IMG/VR virus record: IMGVR_UViG_3300037042_007115
Length of the DNA stretch: 64,000 nt
Direction: 5' to 3' (one strand)
Origin: a virus
Lineage: Duplodnaviria; Heunggongvirae; Uroviricota; Caudoviricetes
The position numbers and the translations under genes were made by a program. The notes beneath the pieces are model-generated. The model was not told the DNA's origin and searched no databases. It saw only the letters and a list, made by a program, of their open reading frames with translations. Below, piece by piece: positions 51,529 to 60,927 of this stretch; within the stretch, counting starts at the first letter, position 1, and every line of letters begins with the position of its first letter.

Positions 51529-51986
51529 TAGAAGAAATACTACTTAAAAATATCTCATATGACATAAGGGCCCGGAATGGTACTTGGTGCAGTAGCCCTT
51601 ACCCCGGGCACAAGCGCGGTTGCCCTAATATTAAGAAAGGGTGCCTCAGGAAGACACCAGATTTTGCTGAGTTTCCGGCTAGGAACTGGTACGCAGTAAT
51701 AGAAGAGTTTGACCTTGCTGCCCATGCTAAGAAAATGAAAGAGGCTCACCCCGATTGGTCCGAGCGTCAGTGCAGGAACCCCCTCTACTGGCAAGGCGGT
51801 GTACGCAAGAGGCTCAGAGACAAAGCCGCAGCTTGTGCCATTGTGCATAATGGTGATTATATCTTAGAGATTCCTGAAGCTTGTGGAGTTGATGTATTTG
51901 CAACTATGGCCAAAGTGGGTATTGTTTTGGAGCGGGTTCCCCAGAAGGTCATTAAAGTGATGCTTGTAGGAACCCCCCTGGGATAG
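51525..51986 (+). CDS. DUF2284-like metal-binding protein
   Basis: C..YPGHKRGCP..PEACGVDVFATM. Confidence 0.7.
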   Translation: MIEEILLKNISYDIRARNGTWCSSPYPGHKRGCPNIKKGCLRKTPDFAEFPARNWYAVIEEFDLAAHAKKMKEAHPDWSERQCRNPLYWQGGVRKRLRDKAAACAIVHNGDYILEIPEACGVDVFATMAKVGIVLERVPQKVIKVMLVGTPLG

Positions 51987-52005
51987 CTATTTTCTTAGAA
52001 GAGCC

Positions 52006-52022
52006 TAGAAAGGAATATATAC
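52006..52022 (+). promoter_or_regulatory. BRE/TATA promoter for the ncRNA-Ro60 operon
   Basis: TAGAAAGG purine-rich BRE-like element then AATATATA; expected start near 52043-52046 coincides with the first RNA stem. Confidence 0.6.
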
Positions 52023-52042
52023 TTATGGAATCCAAATGTATT

Positions 52043-52120
52043 TACAGGGTTGCGTAGAGTACGGTTACTTCTCTACAACTTGGATTGAACATCACACCGT
52101 GCTCGTTTGATCTCCCTGTA
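52043..52120 (+). ncRNA. Y-RNA-like RNA 1
   Basis: TACAGGG/CCCTGTA terminal stem; GAGTACGGT/ACCGTGCTC inner stem; conserved GGGTTGCGTAGA, TTACTTC and TTGATCTCCC motifs; upstream of Ro60. Confidence 0.8.
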
Positions 52121-52125
52121 TTCTT

Positions 52126-52159
52126 ACTCCTATACTTGGGTTCAACTCCCAATAGGGGT
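52126..52159 (+). ncRNA. tRNA-like minihelix (acceptor stem plus T-arm)
   Basis: ACTCCTA/TAGGGGT 7 bp; 3-nt linker; TTGGG-TTCAACT-CCCAA T-arm. Confidence 0.55.
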
Positions 52160-52274
52160 TTTAGCCTTCGGGGGCGGAGAATATGATCTCTCCATGTCTC
52201 GTCTTTCATCGGTTTAATCTCCTGTGTTTGACTTCTCATCGGAAGCATCAATTGGCCGTCACCTTGGGCATTAG

Positions 52275-52365
52275 TTTAGGGTTGCGTAGAATACAGTTAC
52301 TTCGTGTTCTACATGTATTGATCTAACTGGTCGATATTCAACTGTATTCGATTGATCTCCCTAAG
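52275..52365 (+). ncRNA. Y-RNA-like RNA 2
   Basis: TTTAGGG/CCCTAAG terminal stem; GAATACAGTT/AACTGTATTC perfect 10 bp; same conserved motifs with compensatory changes versus RNA 1. Confidence 0.8.
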
Positions 52366-52386
52366 CACTCCTCACCATATTACATC

Positions 52387-52515
52387 GGGGACATGGGGTA
52401 GTGGTTATCCCGCTAAAATTTCCGCTGTCGATTGATCTCCCTTTATCGGGTTGCGTAGATAGCGGTTACTTCGGCTTCAGATCGAGAGACCCAGGTTCGA
52501 CTCCTGGTGTCCCCA
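52387..52515 (+). tRNA. tRNA-like RNA with UCA anticodon and a 57-nt insert (52415-52471) in the anticodon stem that is a circularly permuted Y-RNA stem
   Basis: Acceptor GGGGACA/TGTCCCC+A73; D-arm GGG-TAGTGGTTAT-CCC; anticodon stem CT^CGG/TCGAG with loop CTTCAGA; T-arm CCAGG-TTCGACT-CCTGG; U8, A14, G18G19, A21 and U33 all present. Confidence 0.8.
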
Positions 52516-52536
52516 CTTCAAGTATTGATTCATGAA

Positions 52537-52559
52537 AACCGGTTGCGAATTCTCCGGTT
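52537..52559 (+). promoter_or_regulatory. Mini hairpin in the Ro60 5' leader carrying fragments of the Y-RNA motif
   Basis: AACCGG-TTGCGAATTCT-CCGGTT, 15 nt before ATG 52575. Confidence 0.45.
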
Positions 52560-52574
52560 ATGTCGAGTTTTTGT

Positions 52575-54107
52575 ATGTCAAAATTAAACAAGAAAGCTAG
52601 CGAGGGCGAGAAACTTCTTTCTCACCCAGACCTTACTCTTAATAAAGAGAATGGGGTCGCCTTTAAGACCGGGCCAAAGGTTGAGCTTATGCTTAGAATT
52701 GTAAGTTCCCTTATCTCTGAGGCTGGTGCTTATACCCCCGGGAAAGAGATGGATAAAGAACTGCTTATTGCTATTGAGAAAGCAATGTGTGAGGACCCAA
52801 AGTACATCTTGCAGTTGGCAGTATTTGCCCGTAACAAACTATATCTGCGGAGTGCCACTACTGTATTGCTTGGTGAATATGCTTTAAGTGCAGGGGTAAG
52901 TAAAGTACCAGAGGCACGGAAGTACTTTTTCAATGCACTCCAGAGAGCAGATGATATTACTGAGCTTTTGGGCTATATCTTAACTCGCAAGGGCCAGATA
53001 GATGTCCCATTTAAGGGTAAAATCCCGCATGTGGTTAAACACAGTGTAGCGGAGGCCTTAAAGAAGTTTGATGCCTACCAGTTGGCTAAATACAATCGCT
53101 CAGATGTAGAGGTTACTCTTCGGGATGCTATCTTCCTTACCCACCCCCAGCCGGATAATGATGAGCAGGCAAAGTTATTCGCTAGTATTATTGATGGAAC
53201 TCTTGCCCCACCAGATACATGGGAAGTTCACCTCTCCAGAGATGGTAGTAGCAAGGAGACCTGGGAAGGTATTATCCCCAAGATGGGTTACATGGCTACG
53301 CTTAGGAACCTCAGGAACATGCTTGAGTCTAAAGTCAACATGGTGCCAGTATTGAGGAAACTCTCTGACCCTTCAGAAGTATTGAAATCTAAGCAGTTCC
53401 CATACCGGTTCCTTAGTGCCTACAAGGAGCTTGAGGGTGTAAGTGGCGCCAGTAGAACTTTAGCTGCACTTTCAGATGCACTTGATCTGAGTGCCCAGAA
53501 TGTGCCAGACTTTCCCGGTATTAGCTTCATCACCTGTGACACCAGCGGGACCATGAACGCCACCCTCTCGAGTAAATCAAAGATGACCCGGAAAGAGGTC
53601 GGCTGTTTATTCGGTGCCATGGTGCATAAGAAAGCTGAAGACTCAATAGTAGCAGCTTTTGCCTCAGAGATAGCCCCGGTAGAACTCAGCTATAGGGATT
53701 CAACCTTCACAAACATGAAGAAGCTGTTTGAGGCCAATACTCACGGGAGTGCTACTAACGCTTACAAAGTAATGGACTGGTTAATTGAGGAGAAGCACTT
53801 TGTAGATAGGATTATTCTATTTAGCGATATGCTGTGTTATTCCTCTAGCACAAGAATGGCTTGGATTGCTGTTAACAATGACCAGAATCTCTACCTGGGT
53901 CTGAAGAAATATCGGCAGCAGATCAACCCCAACGTGTTTGTCTACACCTTCGACCTCTCCAGCCACGGCTCAGTACAGTTCCCCAAGGACGACCCAAAGG
54001 TCTGTGTCTTAGGGGGGTTTAGTGATAAGATCTTAAATTTCATCCCCATGTTTGAAAGATCCCGGGCAGACATGCTAGCTGAGATAGAATCCATTGTCCC
54101 TGAGTAG
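52575..54107 (+). CDS. ro60: Ro60/TROVE-domain RNA-binding protein with C-terminal vWA domain
   Basis: LQLAVFARNKLYLRS..QRADDITELLGY..KFDAYQLAKYNR..LRDAIFLTHP..TWEVHLS..MGYMATLRNLRN..QFPYRFLSAY; vWA CDTSGTM; IILFSDM. Confidence 0.95.
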   Translation: MSKLNKKASEGEKLLSHPDLTLNKENGVAFKTGPKVELMLRIVSSLISEAGAYTPGKEMDKELLIAIEKAMCEDPKYILQLAVFARNKLYLRSATTVLLGEYALSAGVSKVPEARKYFFNALQRADDITELLGYILTRKGQIDVPFKGKIPHVVKHSVAEALKKFDAYQLAKYNRSDVEVTLRDAIFLTHPQPDNDEQAKLFASIIDGTLAPPDTWEVHLSRDGSSKETWEGIIPKMGYMATLRNLRNMLESKVNMVPVLRKLSDPSEVLKSKQFPYRFLSAYKELEGVSGASRTLAALSDALDLSAQNVPDFPGISFITCDTSGTMNATLSSKSKMTRKEVGCLFGAMVHKKAEDSIVAAFASEIAPVELSYRDSTFTNMKKLFEANTHGSATNAYKVMDWLIEEKHFVDRIILFSDMLCYSSSTRMAWIAVNNDQNLYLGLKKYRQQINPNVFVYTFDLSSHGSVQFPKDDPKVCVLGGFSDKILNFIPMFERSRADMLAEIESIVPE

Positions 54108-54161
54108 CTTTTTTCCAGCCGGGGGTAAATTTAAATCCCCCAAAACCCATTTATTTAATAC

Positions 54162-60192: not shown

Positions 60193-60927
60193 TTGAAACC
60201 ATATGAATTAAATTTAGGCGGGTTTACTCCAGTTTCTACTGTGGATTTACCCGGCAGGTCTGCTTGTGTCGTGTTTTTCCGCGGGTGTCCTAATTCCTGT
60301 ACTTATTGTCACAATGTACAGCTCATACGAGGTAAAACCTCAGCACCTATAGAATATGTGAAAAAGATGATTAAAGATTCCCATCTAGCAATTAGTGCCG
60401 TAGTTTTCTCGGGGGGAGAACCTACTCTCCAGCCGAGAGCATTAATAGAGCTTCTTAAATATTCCCGGGACTTAGGATTATATACCGCTATTCATACCAG
60501 TGGGGTGTATCCGGATGTATTGCAAGAGATTTTAGCCAGGAAGCTCGTAGACAAGATTGCTTTGGATATTAAGACTACCTGGGAATACTATCCTGCCCTA
60601 TTAGGTAATGATTTTACTGCCGGGGTCCAGGCATCTTTGTTTTTTTGTCGCGGGGCAAAAATGCACGGAGACCTTAACGACTTTGAAGTAGTACATACGG
60701 TTTTCCCTGGGGGTCTCCATGTAGCTATGAATGTCTCTTTGTATGCCCCGGAGATTCCTCTGGTCCTTCAGCAGGGGAACTTAGGTCATAGGGGGCCGTC
60801 AGTCTCACCGTTGGACTTAAGAGAGATAGCTAATATCTGCAGTAACCATGAGGGTGGAATTCGTATAAGGTCTAGAGAATGCGGGGAAGAGCAAGTAGTG
60901 TCTCCGATCAAACCATTTGGGTTTTGA
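60193..60927 (+). CDS. nrdG: Radical SAM anaerobic ribonucleotide reductase activating enzyme
   Basis: STVDLPG..VVFFRGCPNSCTYCHN..VVFSGGEPTLQ..HTSG..KIALDIK. Confidence 0.85.
   Translation: MKPYELNLGGFTPVSTVDLPGRSACVVFFRGCPNSCTYCHNVQLIRGKTSAPIEYVKKMIKDSHLAISAVVFSGGEPTLQPRALIELLKYSRDLGLYTAIHTSGVYPDVLQEILARKLVDKIALDIKTTWEYYPALLGNDFTAGVQASLFFCRGAKMHGDLNDFEVVHTVFPGGLHVAMNVSLYAPEIPLVLQQGNLGHRGPSVSPLDLREIANICSNHEGGIRIRSRECGEEQVVSPIKPFGF

What the first reader, a model, noticed from the sequence alone, without database searches (positions are those of the whole stretch)
52006..54107. Archaeal-virus-encoded Ro60 / Y RNA / tRNA-mimic operon
Seen: a clear TROVE+vWA (Ro60) gene is preceded by about 520 nt of non-coding DNA under one BRE/TATA. 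The order is Y1 (52043-52120), tRNA minihelix, Y2 (52275-52365), tRNA::Y chimera (52387-52515), leader hairpin, Ro60. Three copies share GGGTTGCGTAGA-N6-TTACTTC and TTGATCTCCC, and the N6 stem covaries across them (GTACGG/CCGTGC, ATACAG/CTGTAT, TAGCGG/CCGCTG). Known: Ro60 binds Y RNAs through a conserved terminal helix (metazoan GGUCCGA/UUGAC). Bacterial Rsr genes sit beside Y RNAs such as the tRNA-like YrlA, often with RtcB, and Rsr-Y RNA recruits PNPase for structured-RNA decay. Inference: this virus carries its own Ro60 RNP for RNA surveillance, tRNA-damage counter-defence or redirection of the host exosome. I know of no description of such a system in an archaeal virus.
Basis: partly seen in the sequence, partly recalled or inferred. 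Interest (0 to 1): 0.96.

Follow-up and report, generated by a model that had tools for sequence, protein, structure and literature searches.

The report
Viral Ro60 gene with Y RNAs
A large uncultured virus, probably of archaea, carries a Ro60 RNA-binding protein gene behind a cluster of small RNA genes that all share one conserved 'handle'; they are best read as its own Y RNAs, one of them built into a complete tRNA shape, which extends a bacterial and phage system to archaeal viruses in a new layout.

Summary
Window 52575-54107 encodes a Ro60 orthologue (TROVE plus Ro60-type vWA). The 588 nt before it hold three copies of one RNA module: helix P1, an asymmetric internal loop (5' UUGCGUA, 3' G-N-U-U-G-A-U-C-U), a covarying 8-bp helix P2, then UUACUUC. 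Two copies are simple Y RNAs. The third is circularly permuted, closed by a loop, and inserted between the D arm and anticodon arm of a full tRNA cloverleaf.

The same layout precedes Ro60 genes of 50-61% identity in 11 other metagenomic contigs, several with viral genes. A covariance model of the module finds 108 matches beside more distant Ro60 genes, 107 on the Ro60 strand. The motif also flanks YrlA-like cores in Streptomyces phage BRock.

These are therefore members of the prokaryotic Y RNA kind. No bulge-helix-bulge splice motif exists, so the insert is probably not an intron.

An archaeal host is likely (TATA/BRE spacing, oligo-T ends) but not proven. Ro60 genes in archaeal viruses were already reported; their Y RNAs, as far as I found, were not. 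No RNA data exist.

This scan has noted the same kind before on other DNA, in phages and archaeal viruses. New here: a mini-handle hairpin in the Ro60 leader.

The parts
52007..52022 (+). BRE/TATA-like promoter box (purine-rich stretch followed by AATATATA)
   Evidence: It ends 20 nt before the base of Y1's terminal helix. In 10 of 12 related loci a TATA-like box ends about 20-24 nt (mostly 21) before the first Y RNA, although the sequence between them differs. Similar boxes lie 21-25 nt before the ATG of neighbouring genes. No sigma-70 site fits this position.
52043..52120 (+). Y1, a simple Y RNA. P1 is UACAGGG/CCCUGUA, the internal loop is UUGCGUA / GUUUGAUCU, P2 is GAGUACGG/CCGUGCUC, followed by UUACUUC and a 32-nt apical part.
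   Evidence: Fold energy -24.5 kcal/mol, z -3.1. Model R1 scores 77.9 bits; note that this sequence was in the training set. Covariation is shown.
52126..52159 (+). tRNA minihelix: a 7-bp acceptor-like stem, a 3-nt linker and a T arm (UUGGG-UUCAACU-CCCAA)
   Evidence: Fold z -3.35. Weak match to the Rfam mascRNA-menRNA model, 20 bits, E 0.26. It was not found in the related loci. A role as a processing signal is inferred only.
52199..52214 (+). Possible relic of a Y 3' strand (UCG-GUUUAAUCU-CCUG) with no matching 5' strand
   Evidence: Seen by eye against the 3'-strand consensus. Model R1 does not detect it. Low confidence.
52276..52364 (+). Y2, a simple Y RNA. P1 is UUAGGG/CCCUAA, P2 is GAAUACAG/CUGUAUUC.
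   Evidence: Fold energy -27.3 kcal/mol, z -3.85. Model R1 scores 67.7 bits; this sequence was in the training set.
52387..52515 (+). tRNA-shaped Y RNA. It has the acceptor stem GGGGACA/UGUCCCC, a D arm, the anticodon arm with loop CUUCAGA (UCA), a T arm and A73. The handle is inserted as a closed hairpin.
   Evidence: ARAGORN calls a tRNA with anticodon tca at 52448-52514. ARAGORN also gives a cloverleaf with anticodon tca in 80 of 126 deletion variants. The Rfam tRNA model scores 23 bits on the 3' part.
52422..52472 (+). Circularly permuted handle inside the tRNA: P2 3' strand, GAUUGAUCU, CCC, loop UUUAUC, GGG, UUGCGUA, P2 5' strand, UUACUUC
   Evidence: Model R2 scores 65.1 bits; this sequence was in the training set. 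P2 pairs 8 of 8. No conserved bulge-helix-bulge motif lies at the junctions.
52539..52557 (+). Leader 'mini-handle' hairpin CCGG-UUGCGAAUUCU-CCGG, followed by UUAU and a T5 run (52568-52572) just before the start codon
   Evidence: Present in 11 of 11 clade loci, its 3' end about 17-43 nt before the ATG. Three sequences carry a C-G to U-A compensatory change. The proposed functions, autoregulation or attenuation, are inferred.
52575..54107 (+). Ro60 orthologue, 510 aa: TROVE ring domain plus Ro60-type vWA domain
   Evidence: Pfam PF05731 E 1e-27 and PF25045 E 2.9e-8. PDB 9KOP/9L5Y E 4e-27. 694 homologues were found; the nearest are 50-61% identical and all metagenomic.
54109..54114 (+). T6 run directly after the TAG stop codon, a likely oligo-T terminator of the unit
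   Evidence: Read directly from the sequence. That archaeal transcription stops at oligo-T runs is established knowledge; it was not tested here.

Best explanation
Window 52007-54114 is one expression unit of a large virus on a 178-kb contig, probably a virus of archaea. It encodes a Ro60 orthologue and, in front of it, that protein's own Y RNAs.

All the RNAs share one 'handle': a short terminal helix P1, an asymmetric internal loop with conserved letters (5' UUGCG-U/A-A, 3' G-N-N-U-N-A-U-C-U), a covarying 8-bp helix P2, and the single-stranded tail UUACUUC.

By homology with bacterial and phage Y RNAs, the handle is where the Ro60 ring docks. This step is inferred, not shown.

The part beyond the handle differs between copies:
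- Y1 and Y2 carry only a short, anticodon-arm-like remnant.
- The third RNA is a whole tRNA body with free acceptor ends. Its handle is a loop-closed side hairpin between the D arm and the anticodon arm. This is a circular permutation of the YrlA layout.

The tRNA-like parts (the chimera and the minihelix) would let host RNase P, RNase Z and the CCA-adding enzyme cut the precursor into separate RNAs. They would also give Ro60 a tRNA-shaped tether for a tRNA-binding host factor or nuclease. Both points are inferred.

A miniature handle in the Ro60 leader, followed by a T-run, may let Ro60 limit its own synthesis. This is also inferred.
For: 1. The protein is Ro60.

2. Three exact copies of the motif lie within 430 nt and nowhere else in the 64-kb window.

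3. The same handle and the same order (promoter, Y, tRNA-shaped chimera, leader hairpin, Ro60) stand before Ro60 genes of 50-61% identity in L001-L003, L145-L147, L150 and L153-L156. They are always on the Ro60 strand and never on the other.

4. Covariation:
- P2 pairs 7.45 of 8 with its own partner, against 5.40 of 8 with partners from other copies.
- On alignment A2, 86% of cells are paired against 71.6% in shuffles (0 of 500 shuffles reach it) and 43-56% when the partner is slid.
- 10 of 13 pairs show changes on both sides.

5. Model R1 of the handle finds 108 matches at E <= 0.1 in other loci. Of these, 107 are on the Ro60 strand. They lie in 54 of 84 Ro60 loci of only about 25-44% identity that were not used for training.

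6. In Streptomyces phage BRock the same 5' and 3' strands flank cores that match Rfam YrlA positions 25-83, directly upstream of its Ro60 gene.

7. Phage Ro60 proteins bind upstream-encoded Y-like RNAs carrying a CGAA motif (PMC12135203). Y RNAs lie beside Ro60 in 254 bacteria and 22 phages (PMC4201824).

8. The chimeras: all 16 examined were called as tRNAs by ARAGORN once the insert was removed (15 with a clear majority anticodon; L154 gave no consistent call, and L153 and HGTV-1 only weak pluralities). Permuted hairpins also occur in L156, L148 and L004. A YrlA-ordered version with the same parts exists in L156 and L150.
Against: No transcript data could be found, so discrete RNAs, their ends and their processing are not shown.

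Ro60 binding to the handle is inferred from homology and adjacency only.

The Rfam Y_RNA and YrlA models give no match in the window at E <= 10. They stay far below threshold in relatives.

The published 5' motif GNCGAAN0-1G is only partly matched: most copies here have UGCGUAG, some have UGCGAAG.

Archaea lack PNPase, the one well-documented effector, so the partner is unknown.

The host domain is not proven. One related contig sits in a MAG labelled Alphaproteobacteria, and the handle family spans bacterial phages.

The 183-kb contig L004 has handle RNAs but no TROVE gene in the part held.
Confidence: 0.78

Rival explanations
1. The RNA at 52387-52515 is a real decoding tRNA (anticodon UCA, an opal suppressor or Trp-like). 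The handle is an intron that is cut out, and perhaps circularised, by the host splicing endonuclease and RtcB.
For: Removing about 57 nt leaves a regular cloverleaf with U33 and a purine at position 37. GenBank annotates the HGTV-1 counterpart as 'tRNA-Asp + intron', and that virus encodes RtcB nearby. Archaeal tRNAs do carry introns at non-canonical sites (established knowledge).
Against: No conserved bulge-helix-bulge motif lies at the junctions. Seven of 15 chimeras have no candidate at all, and the candidates in the others lie at inconsistent places.

The same design occurs in Arthrobacter phage Atuin, a phage of bacteria, and bacteria are not known to have that endonuclease.

TGA is the commonest stop codon on this strand, 18 of 40 ORFs, so an efficient UGA reader would be harmful.

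The anticodon is not kept between chimeras in the same position upstream of Ro60: UCA, CUG, UUG and GUG are all seen.

The insert itself is conserved and covaries like the free Y RNAs.
Confidence: 0.1
2. The repeats are not separate small RNAs. They are structured parts of a long Ro60 5' untranslated region that act in cis on stability, attenuation or translation.
For: A single TATA box precedes the whole block, and no strong terminator lies between the elements. A handle-like hairpin and a T5 run lie just before the start codon.
Against: Homologous handles also lie downstream of Ro60 genes, 3 kb away from the gene (HGTV-1), or in tRNA arrays with no adjacent Ro60 gene. tRNA-like elements that are known processing signals separate the copies. 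In M. smegmatis, YrlA and YrlB are cut from one precursor upstream of rsr (PMC4201824).
Confidence: 0.07
3. The elements are remnants of tRNA genes and short mobile repeats, such as integration scars or MITE-like copies, with no RNA function.
For: The region holds tRNA fragments (the minihelix and a relic 3' strand). A loose motif scan of bacterial genomes gives about as many hits as chance predicts: 52 found, about 70 expected by my own estimate, and none of them near a Ro60 gene.
Against: Compensatory changes occur in both helices. Model hits show a 107-to-1 strand bias beside Ro60 genes. The order and spacing of elements are kept across Ro60 genes of 50-61% identity.
Confidence: 0.03

Closest known systems
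Bacterial and phage YrlA/YrlB Y RNAs with Rsr (Ro60): Salmonella, Mycobacterium smegmatis, mycobacteriophages (Chen et al. 2014, PMC4201824; Wang et al. 2018, bioRxiv 10.1101/312249)
   Same: The RNAs are encoded next to Ro60 on the same strand, with several per locus cut from one precursor. The handle is formed by a terminal helix with a conserved 5' strand containing CG(A/U)A. A tRNA-like module is attached. M. smegmatis YrlA is even opened by RNase P and receives CCA, which gives free acceptor ends.
   Different: The Rfam YrlA model does not reach threshold. Here the anticodon arm is kept as its own hairpin. In the chimera the gene order is that of a tRNA, with free acceptor ends and the handle closed by a loop. 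That is the reverse of YrlA, whose ends lie in the handle and whose acceptor is closed. The expression signals here look archaeal.
Thermus phage phiLo Ro60 with Yrl1/Yrl2 and host PNPase (PMC12135203; PDB 9KOP, 9L5Y)
   Same: This is the closest solved structure to the window's protein (E 4e-27). It is a virus-encoded Ro60 with two Y-like RNAs upstream of the gene, shown to bind them.
   Different: The host is a bacterium that has PNPase. Going by the passages I read, no tRNA-shaped Y RNA is described there. Sequence identity between the proteins is low.
Streptomyces phage BRock and Arthrobacter phage Atuin Ro-like loci (GenBank KX925554, OK040794)
   Same: They have the same handle letters (AUGCGUAGA ... 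UUACUUC with UUUUUCUAG-type 3' strands) around YrlA-like cores next to Ro60. Atuin also has tRNA-ordered chimeras.
   Different: The hosts are bacteria. These RNAs are not annotated in the records. Their Ro60 proteins are only about 27% identical to the window's.
Haloarchaeal virus HGTV-1: TROVE gene 129 and 'tRNA-Asp + intron' gene 136 (NC_021328)
   Same: It is a proven archaeal virus with a TROVE gene (29% identity). It carries a 132-nt tRNA whose 'intron' has the same plan: 3' strand, loop, 5' strand, then GUUACUUCG.
   Different: The RNA lies 3 kb from the TROVE gene, in a tRNA/RtcB region. Its handle letters are more diverged, and it is annotated as an intron-bearing tRNA.
TROVE/Ro60 genes reported in Asgard 'Nidhogg' viruses (bioRxiv 10.1101/2021.07.29.454249) and Borg elements (PMC11208441)
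   Same: Ro60-type proteins are encoded by archaeal viruses or extrachromosomal elements.
   Different: Those papers name the protein only. In the passages I read, no partner RNA is identified.

Membership tests
Ro60 / Rsr protein family | TROVE (HEAT-repeat ring) domain | tested here: met
   PF05731, E 1e-27, 97.9 bits against a cut-off of 23.
Ro60 / Rsr protein family | C-terminal Ro60-type von Willebrand A domain | tested here: met
   PF25045, E 2.9e-8, 34.3 bits against a cut-off of 27.7. The D-x-S-G motif is invariant in the alignment of 22 relatives.
Ro60 / Rsr protein family | Full-length similarity to a Ro60 of solved structure | tested here: met
   9KOP/9L5Y, residues 23-494, E 4e-27. 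Human Ro60 9NEN gives E 6.6e-4.
Prokaryotic Y RNAs (YrlA/YrlB class) | Encoded within a few kb of a Ro60 gene, on the same strand | tested here: met
   All three copies lie 60-530 nt upstream on the + strand. The same holds in 11 related loci. 107 of 108 model hits lie on the Ro60 strand.
Prokaryotic Y RNAs (YrlA/YrlB class) | Stem formed by the 5' and 3' ends, with a conserved 5'-strand motif (GNCGAAN0-1G / CGAA) | tested here: inconclusive
   The stem and a conserved 5' strand are present and covary. The letters are UGCGUAG in the window; UGCGAAG occurs in L145, L153, L156 and BRock. This is only a partial match to the published motif.
Prokaryotic Y RNAs (YrlA/YrlB class) | Match to Rfam RF02553 (YrlA) at the gathering score | tested here: not met
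   No match at E <= 10 in the window. Relatives and phages reach at most 27-33 bits against a gathering score of 69, and only over the tRNA-like core.
Prokaryotic Y RNAs (YrlA/YrlB class) | YrlA layout: ends in the handle, internal T arm, closed acceptor hairpin, D arm | tested here: not met
   Y1 and Y2 have no T or D arm, so they are YrlB-like. The chimera has all arms but in tRNA order, with open acceptor ends. YrlA-ordered relatives exist in L156 and L150.
Prokaryotic Y RNAs (YrlA/YrlB class) | Homology of the handle to RNAs beside distant Ro60 genes | tested here: met
   Model R1 gives hits in 54 of 84 untrained Ro60 loci of about 25-44% identity. The strands are shared with BRock YrlA-like RNAs.
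Prokaryotic Y RNAs (YrlA/YrlB class) | Bound by Ro60 | not testable with these tools
   This needs EMSA, RIP or CLIP. No RNA runs were listed.
Metazoan Y RNA (Rfam RF00019) | Match to the family model | tested here: not met
   No hit at E <= 10 in 51900-52700, and none at the gathering score in the whole window.
Archaeal intron-containing tRNA | Bulge-helix-bulge (3-4-3) motif at the exon-intron junctions | tested here: not met
   A scripted scan of 15 chimeras found no candidate in 7. In the rest the candidates lie at inconsistent places that would not restore the tRNA.
Archaeal intron-containing tRNA | Canonical cloverleaf after removal of the insert | tested here: met
   ARAGORN: anticodon tca in 80 of 126 deletion variants for the window; the other 15 chimeras were also called as tRNAs, though L154 gave no consistent anticodon.

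The most novel reading that the evidence does not exclude
The tRNA-shaped Y RNAs form a new functional class with two roles. With free acceptor ends and an intact anticodon loop, they pass as tRNAs to host enzymes, or to tRNA-targeting defence nucleases. Through the built-in handle they carry the viral Ro60 ring to those targets, acting as decoy, sensor or repair platform. Separately, Ro60 controls its own synthesis by binding the miniature handle in its mRNA leader. Neither role has been described for any Ro60 system.
Probability: 0.15. Interest if true: 0.8.

Novelty: new variant of a known kind. Interest (0 to 1): 0.6.

Why it matters
Ro60 and Y RNAs are studied mainly in animals (autoimmunity, RNA quality control) and in a few bacteria. 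What the RNP does for viruses is open.

This locus and its relatives show that viruses likely infecting archaea carry the whole particle, both protein and RNAs. The partner RNA can be built as a complete tRNA with a docking arm.

This gives a compact, testable system. The RNAs are short, their handle is defined to the base, natural compensatory variants exist, and there is a candidate autoregulatory site.

Archaea lack PNPase. Finding the effector here would show how general the 'tether' model of Y RNAs is.

It also corrects annotation. 'Intron-containing' viral tRNAs such as HGTV-1 gene 136 are probably Y RNAs.

Tried and rejected
- Rfam on the window, at gathering score and at E <= 10: no Y_RNA or YrlA hit, only a weak tRNA and chance hits.
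- No whole genome is held for the window, so genome-wide searches for RtcB, tRNA sets or host markers were impossible.
- Single-protein scan of IMG/VR with Ro60 found nothing. The alignment-based scan succeeded.
- Loose motif scan of genome contigs: 52 hits against about 70 expected by chance (my estimate), none near Ro60. These were set aside as chance. In IMG/VR only L004, with two hits 430 nt apart, was real.
- Expression: no RNA holder was listed for the stretch. Read laying was not used, because only DNA contigs were on offer.
- Host assignment:
  - A homologue search with the YdjM-like neighbour gave two proteins and no names.
  - PCNA and archaeal pilin families were not found in five related IMG/VR records.
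  - The record classed as 'provirus' (L157) holds only viral-type genes.
  - The primase's nearest isolates are bacterial phages at low identity.
- Alignment A3, which mixed short and long permuted hairpins, was too poorly aligned to use.
- A GUAG/UUAC pairing inside the handle was considered and dropped, because variants do not keep it.
- A regex test for the uniqueness of the mini-handle failed technically, so no specificity figure is given.
- No RtcB or other RNA-repair family was found among about 30 window ORFs scanned.
Full report
**What is there**

The ORF at 52560-54107 matches Pfam TROVE (E 1e-27) and the Ro60-type vWA domain (E 2.9e-8). It aligns almost end to end with the solved Ro60 of Thermus phage phiLo, 9KOP/9L5Y, E 4e-27. 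The database copy of this protein has 510 residues and sits on a 178,173-bp contig. All relatives begin M-x-K-L-N, so the true start is the ATG at 52575.

Between the previous ORF (end 51986) and this start lie 588 nt with no convincing ORF.

**The repeats**

The 5' motif GGGTTGCGTAGA-N6-TTAC occurs exactly three times, at 52047, 52279 and 52448. Even with three mismatches allowed, shuffles give only 0.5 matches against 5 seen; the two mismatched ones lie elsewhere and are unrelated. The 3' motif TTGATCTCCC occurs exactly at 52107, 52352 and 52432.

Each pair of strands folds into the same module:
- P1: GGG/CCC, lengthened by flanking pairs that differ between Y1 and Y2
- an asymmetric internal loop: 5' UUGCGUA, 3' G-(U/A)-U-U-G-A-U-C-U
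- P2: an 8-bp helix whose middle differs and compensates between copies
- the tail UUACUUC

In the third copy the 3' strand comes first, P1 is closed by the loop UUUAUC, and the 5' strand follows. This hairpin sits inside a tRNA:
- acceptor stem 52387-52393 / 52508-52514
- D arm
- anticodon arm UUCGG-CUUCAGA-UCGAG
- T arm
- A73

ARAGORN gives a cloverleaf with anticodon UCA once the insert is removed.

Between Y1 and Y2 lies an acceptor/T-arm minihelix at 52126-52159 (fold z -3.35).

**Is it tied to Ro60?**

The nearest Ro60 proteins (50-61% identity) are all metagenomic. I fetched eleven such loci:
- L001-L003
- L145-L147 and L150 from IMG/VR
- L153-L156

Every one has a 560-850-nt gene-free gap before Ro60. 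Every one holds the same handle, on the Ro60 strand only.

The order is also kept: a TATA-like box, a first Y RNA starting about 21 nt after the box, optional further Y RNAs, a tRNA-shaped chimera, a leader hairpin, then Ro60.

Some loci hold a second chimera with a different tRNA body (anticodon UGU). Some hold YrlA-ordered RNAs in which the same parts are arranged with the ends in the handle and the acceptor closed (L156 1102-1218, L150 1706-1812). The tRNA-ordered and YrlA-ordered forms are exact circular permutations of each other. Both keep an anticodon-arm hairpin after UUAC.

**Covariation**

Across 33 distinct handles:
- P2 pairs 7.45 of 8 with its own partner, against 5.40 of 8 with partners from other copies.
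- For the four middle pairs the figures are 3.55 and 2.14.

On a MAFFT alignment of 17 simple Y RNAs:
- 86% of cells are paired, against 71.6% in shuffles (0 of 500 reach it) and 43-56% when partners are slid.
- 10 of 13 pairs have changes on both sides.

These sequences are related, so the shuffle count is not a probability. The slide control and the many pair types point the same way.

**Link to known Y RNAs**

Rfam gives no Y_RNA or YrlA match in the window. Two other lines tie the handle to that kind.

First, upstream of the Ro60 gene of Streptomyces phage BRock, cores that match Rfam YrlA positions 25-83 are flanked by the same strands: AUGCGUAGA-stem-UUACUUC on the 5' side and stem-UCG-CUUUUUCUAG on the 3' side. 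Arthrobacter phage Atuin has the same strands, including tRNA-ordered chimeras.

Second, covariance model R1, built from this clade, finds only the three known copies in the 64-kb window. Two of those were training sequences. In 93 other loci it finds 108 matches at E <= 0.1. Of these, 107 are on the Ro60 strand. They lie in 54 of 84 untrained loci whose Ro60 is only about 25-44% identical.

The published picture fits:
- Y RNAs lie beside Ro60 in 254 bacteria and 22 phages.
- They have a conserved 5' motif GNCGAAN0-1G, and several RNAs are cut from one precursor.
- M. smegmatis YrlA is opened by RNase P and given CCA (PMC4201824).
- Thermus phage Ro60 binds two upstream Y-like RNAs carrying a CGAA motif and joins host PNPase (PMC12135203).

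Here the motif reads UGCG(U/A)AG, a partial match.

**Intron or built-in arm?**

HGTV-1, a haloarchaeal virus with a TROVE gene (29% identity) and RtcB, carries a 132-nt gene annotated 'tRNA-Asp + intron'. It has the same plan.

I scanned 15 chimeras for a 3-4-3 bulge-helix-bulge motif near the junctions. Seven have none. In the others the candidates lie at inconsistent, non-restoring places.

Three further points argue against an intron:
- The design also occurs in a phage of bacteria.
- The anticodon differs between chimeras at the same position upstream of Ro60: UCA, CUG, UUG and GUG.
- TGA is the commonest stop codon on this strand, 18 of 40 ORFs.

I therefore read the insert as a permanent Ro60-docking arm and the UCA loop as non-decoding. 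About 10% is left for the intron/suppressor reading.

**Leader**

In 11 of 11 clade loci a hairpin lies with its 3' end about 17-43 nt before the ATG. Its form is CYGG-(U/A/G)UGC-N-(A)UCU/UCAU-CCRG-UUAU. This amounts to P1 plus the first letters of the 5' loop strand and the last letters of the 3' loop strand, with no P2. A T4-T5 run often follows. Three sequences carry a C-G to U-A compensatory change.

This looks like a miniature handle. Autoregulation by Ro60, or attenuation, is a hypothesis only.

**Host and expression signals**

Points that fit archaeal transcription:
- A purine-rich/TATA box ends 20 nt before Y1.
- In 10 of 12 loci the spacing is about 20-24 nt (mostly 21) despite different intervening sequence.
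- Similar boxes lie 21-25 nt before the ATG of neighbouring genes, which suggests leaderless messages.
- A T6 run follows the stop codon.
- There is no sigma-70 promoter excess, and the only intrinsic-terminator-like match on this strand lies inside the Ro60 coding region.

Related contigs carry Pfam families typical of archaea: Pilin_N and DUF7557 in L001, zf-like PF04071 in L002 and L155. They also carry viral genes such as terminase and DUF1064.

The window itself holds a primase-helicase, homing endonucleases, thymidylate synthase and RNase H.

Direct tests of the host failed. One relative lies in a MAG labelled Alphaproteobacteria. I put the archaeal host at about 70%. Earlier notes of this scan on the same contig reach the same view, but they are not independent evidence.

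**Novelty**

Ro60/TROVE genes in archaeal viruses and elements are already recorded: the HGTV-1 annotation, Asgard Nidhogg viruses and Borgs. In the papers I could search and read, I found no partner RNA described for them. I also found no description of a tRNA-ordered Y RNA with the handle as a side hairpin. Wang et al. only remark that YrlA resembles permuted pre-tRNAs.

This scan has noted the same kind of RNA several times on other DNA, in phages and archaeal viruses.

I file the finding as a new variant of a known kind. It is a real and well-supported locus. Its function, its effector and its host still need to be shown by experiment.

Noticed in passing
window 52560 vs 52575: The Ro60 ORF has two in-frame ATGs. 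The database protein (510 aa) and the N-termini of all relatives (M-x-K-L-N) point to 52575 as the start. The mini-handle hairpin and the T5 run would then lie in the leader, not in the coding sequence.
   Followed up: yes
window 52055-52076 and 52287-52311: In Y1 and Y2 a second hairpin can form (GUAGAG...CUCUAC in Y1, GUAGAA...UUCUAC in Y2, differing by a G-C to A-U change). It excludes P2 and could be an alternative conformation. It is absent from the chimera and only partial in relatives.
   Followed up: partly
window 52466-52485; apical parts of Y RNAs in L002, L146, L147, L153, L154: After UUAC, nearly all members carry an anticodon-arm-like hairpin whose loop is often CU(C/U)UGGA, a Gln-type loop. 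The simple Y RNAs keep a CUUUGGAAA remnant. This suggests descent of the whole family from a tRNA-Gln-like RNA.
   Followed up: partly
L062 2941-3072 (-), i.e. NC_021328.1 70440-70571: The 'tRNA-Asp (gtc) + intron' of haloarchaeal virus HGTV-1 has the permuted-handle plan. After removal of the insert, ARAGORN most often (42 of 126 variants, a plurality) reads it as a CUG-loop cloverleaf. It is probably a Y RNA and not an intron-bearing tRNA-Asp.
   Followed up: partly
L004 1611-2117 and 8956-9085 (-), IMG/VR contig of 183 kb: A dense tRNA array of 30 or more tRNAs holds one YrlA-ordered and two tRNA-ordered handle RNAs. No TROVE gene was found in the 183 kb held; CheckV estimates the record as about 52% complete.
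   Followed up: partly
L148 1373-2330 (IMG/VR, 74.9 kb, direct terminal repeats): A 1.1-kb array before a Ro60 gene of 42% identity holds six handle RNAs and two tRNA-ordered chimeras (anticodon loops GUG and UCC). The design therefore extends well beyond the window's clade.
   Followed up: partly
L145 1770-1905, L153 1715-1945, L150 2255-2430: A further conserved tRNA-like RNA lies in the same gaps. It has an acceptor stem and T arm around a long insert that begins GCACCUGUUGGUUCGGUGC. It is absent from the window and was not identified by Rfam.
   Followed up: no
window 60193-60927; L156 4564-5100: A radical-SAM protein with a Fer4_12 domain (QueE-like) lies 6 kb downstream of Ro60. In L156 a PTPS (QueD-like) gene and a radical-SAM gene follow Ro60. 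Together they hint at a 7-deazaguanine pathway for DNA or tRNA modification.
   Followed up: no
window, ORFs of 70 aa or more, + strand 43-64 kb: Stop codon use is TGA 18, TAA 17, TAG 5. UGA is therefore an ordinary stop codon despite the UCA anticodon loop in the chimera.
   Followed up: yes
window 1-26798 (-): Three very large ORFs (more than 2673 aa, 1872 aa and 3186 aa) fill the left third of the window. The 604-aa ORF beside them has CarboxypepD_reg domains. They were not studied here.
   Followed up: no
L001 (GCA_028690095.1, contig of 73 kb): This contig is binned in a MAG labelled Alphaproteobacteria. It carries phage-type genes, an archaeal-type pilin N-terminus, TATA-type promoters and the Ro60/Y cluster. 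It is probably a mis-binned viral contig.
   Followed up: partly
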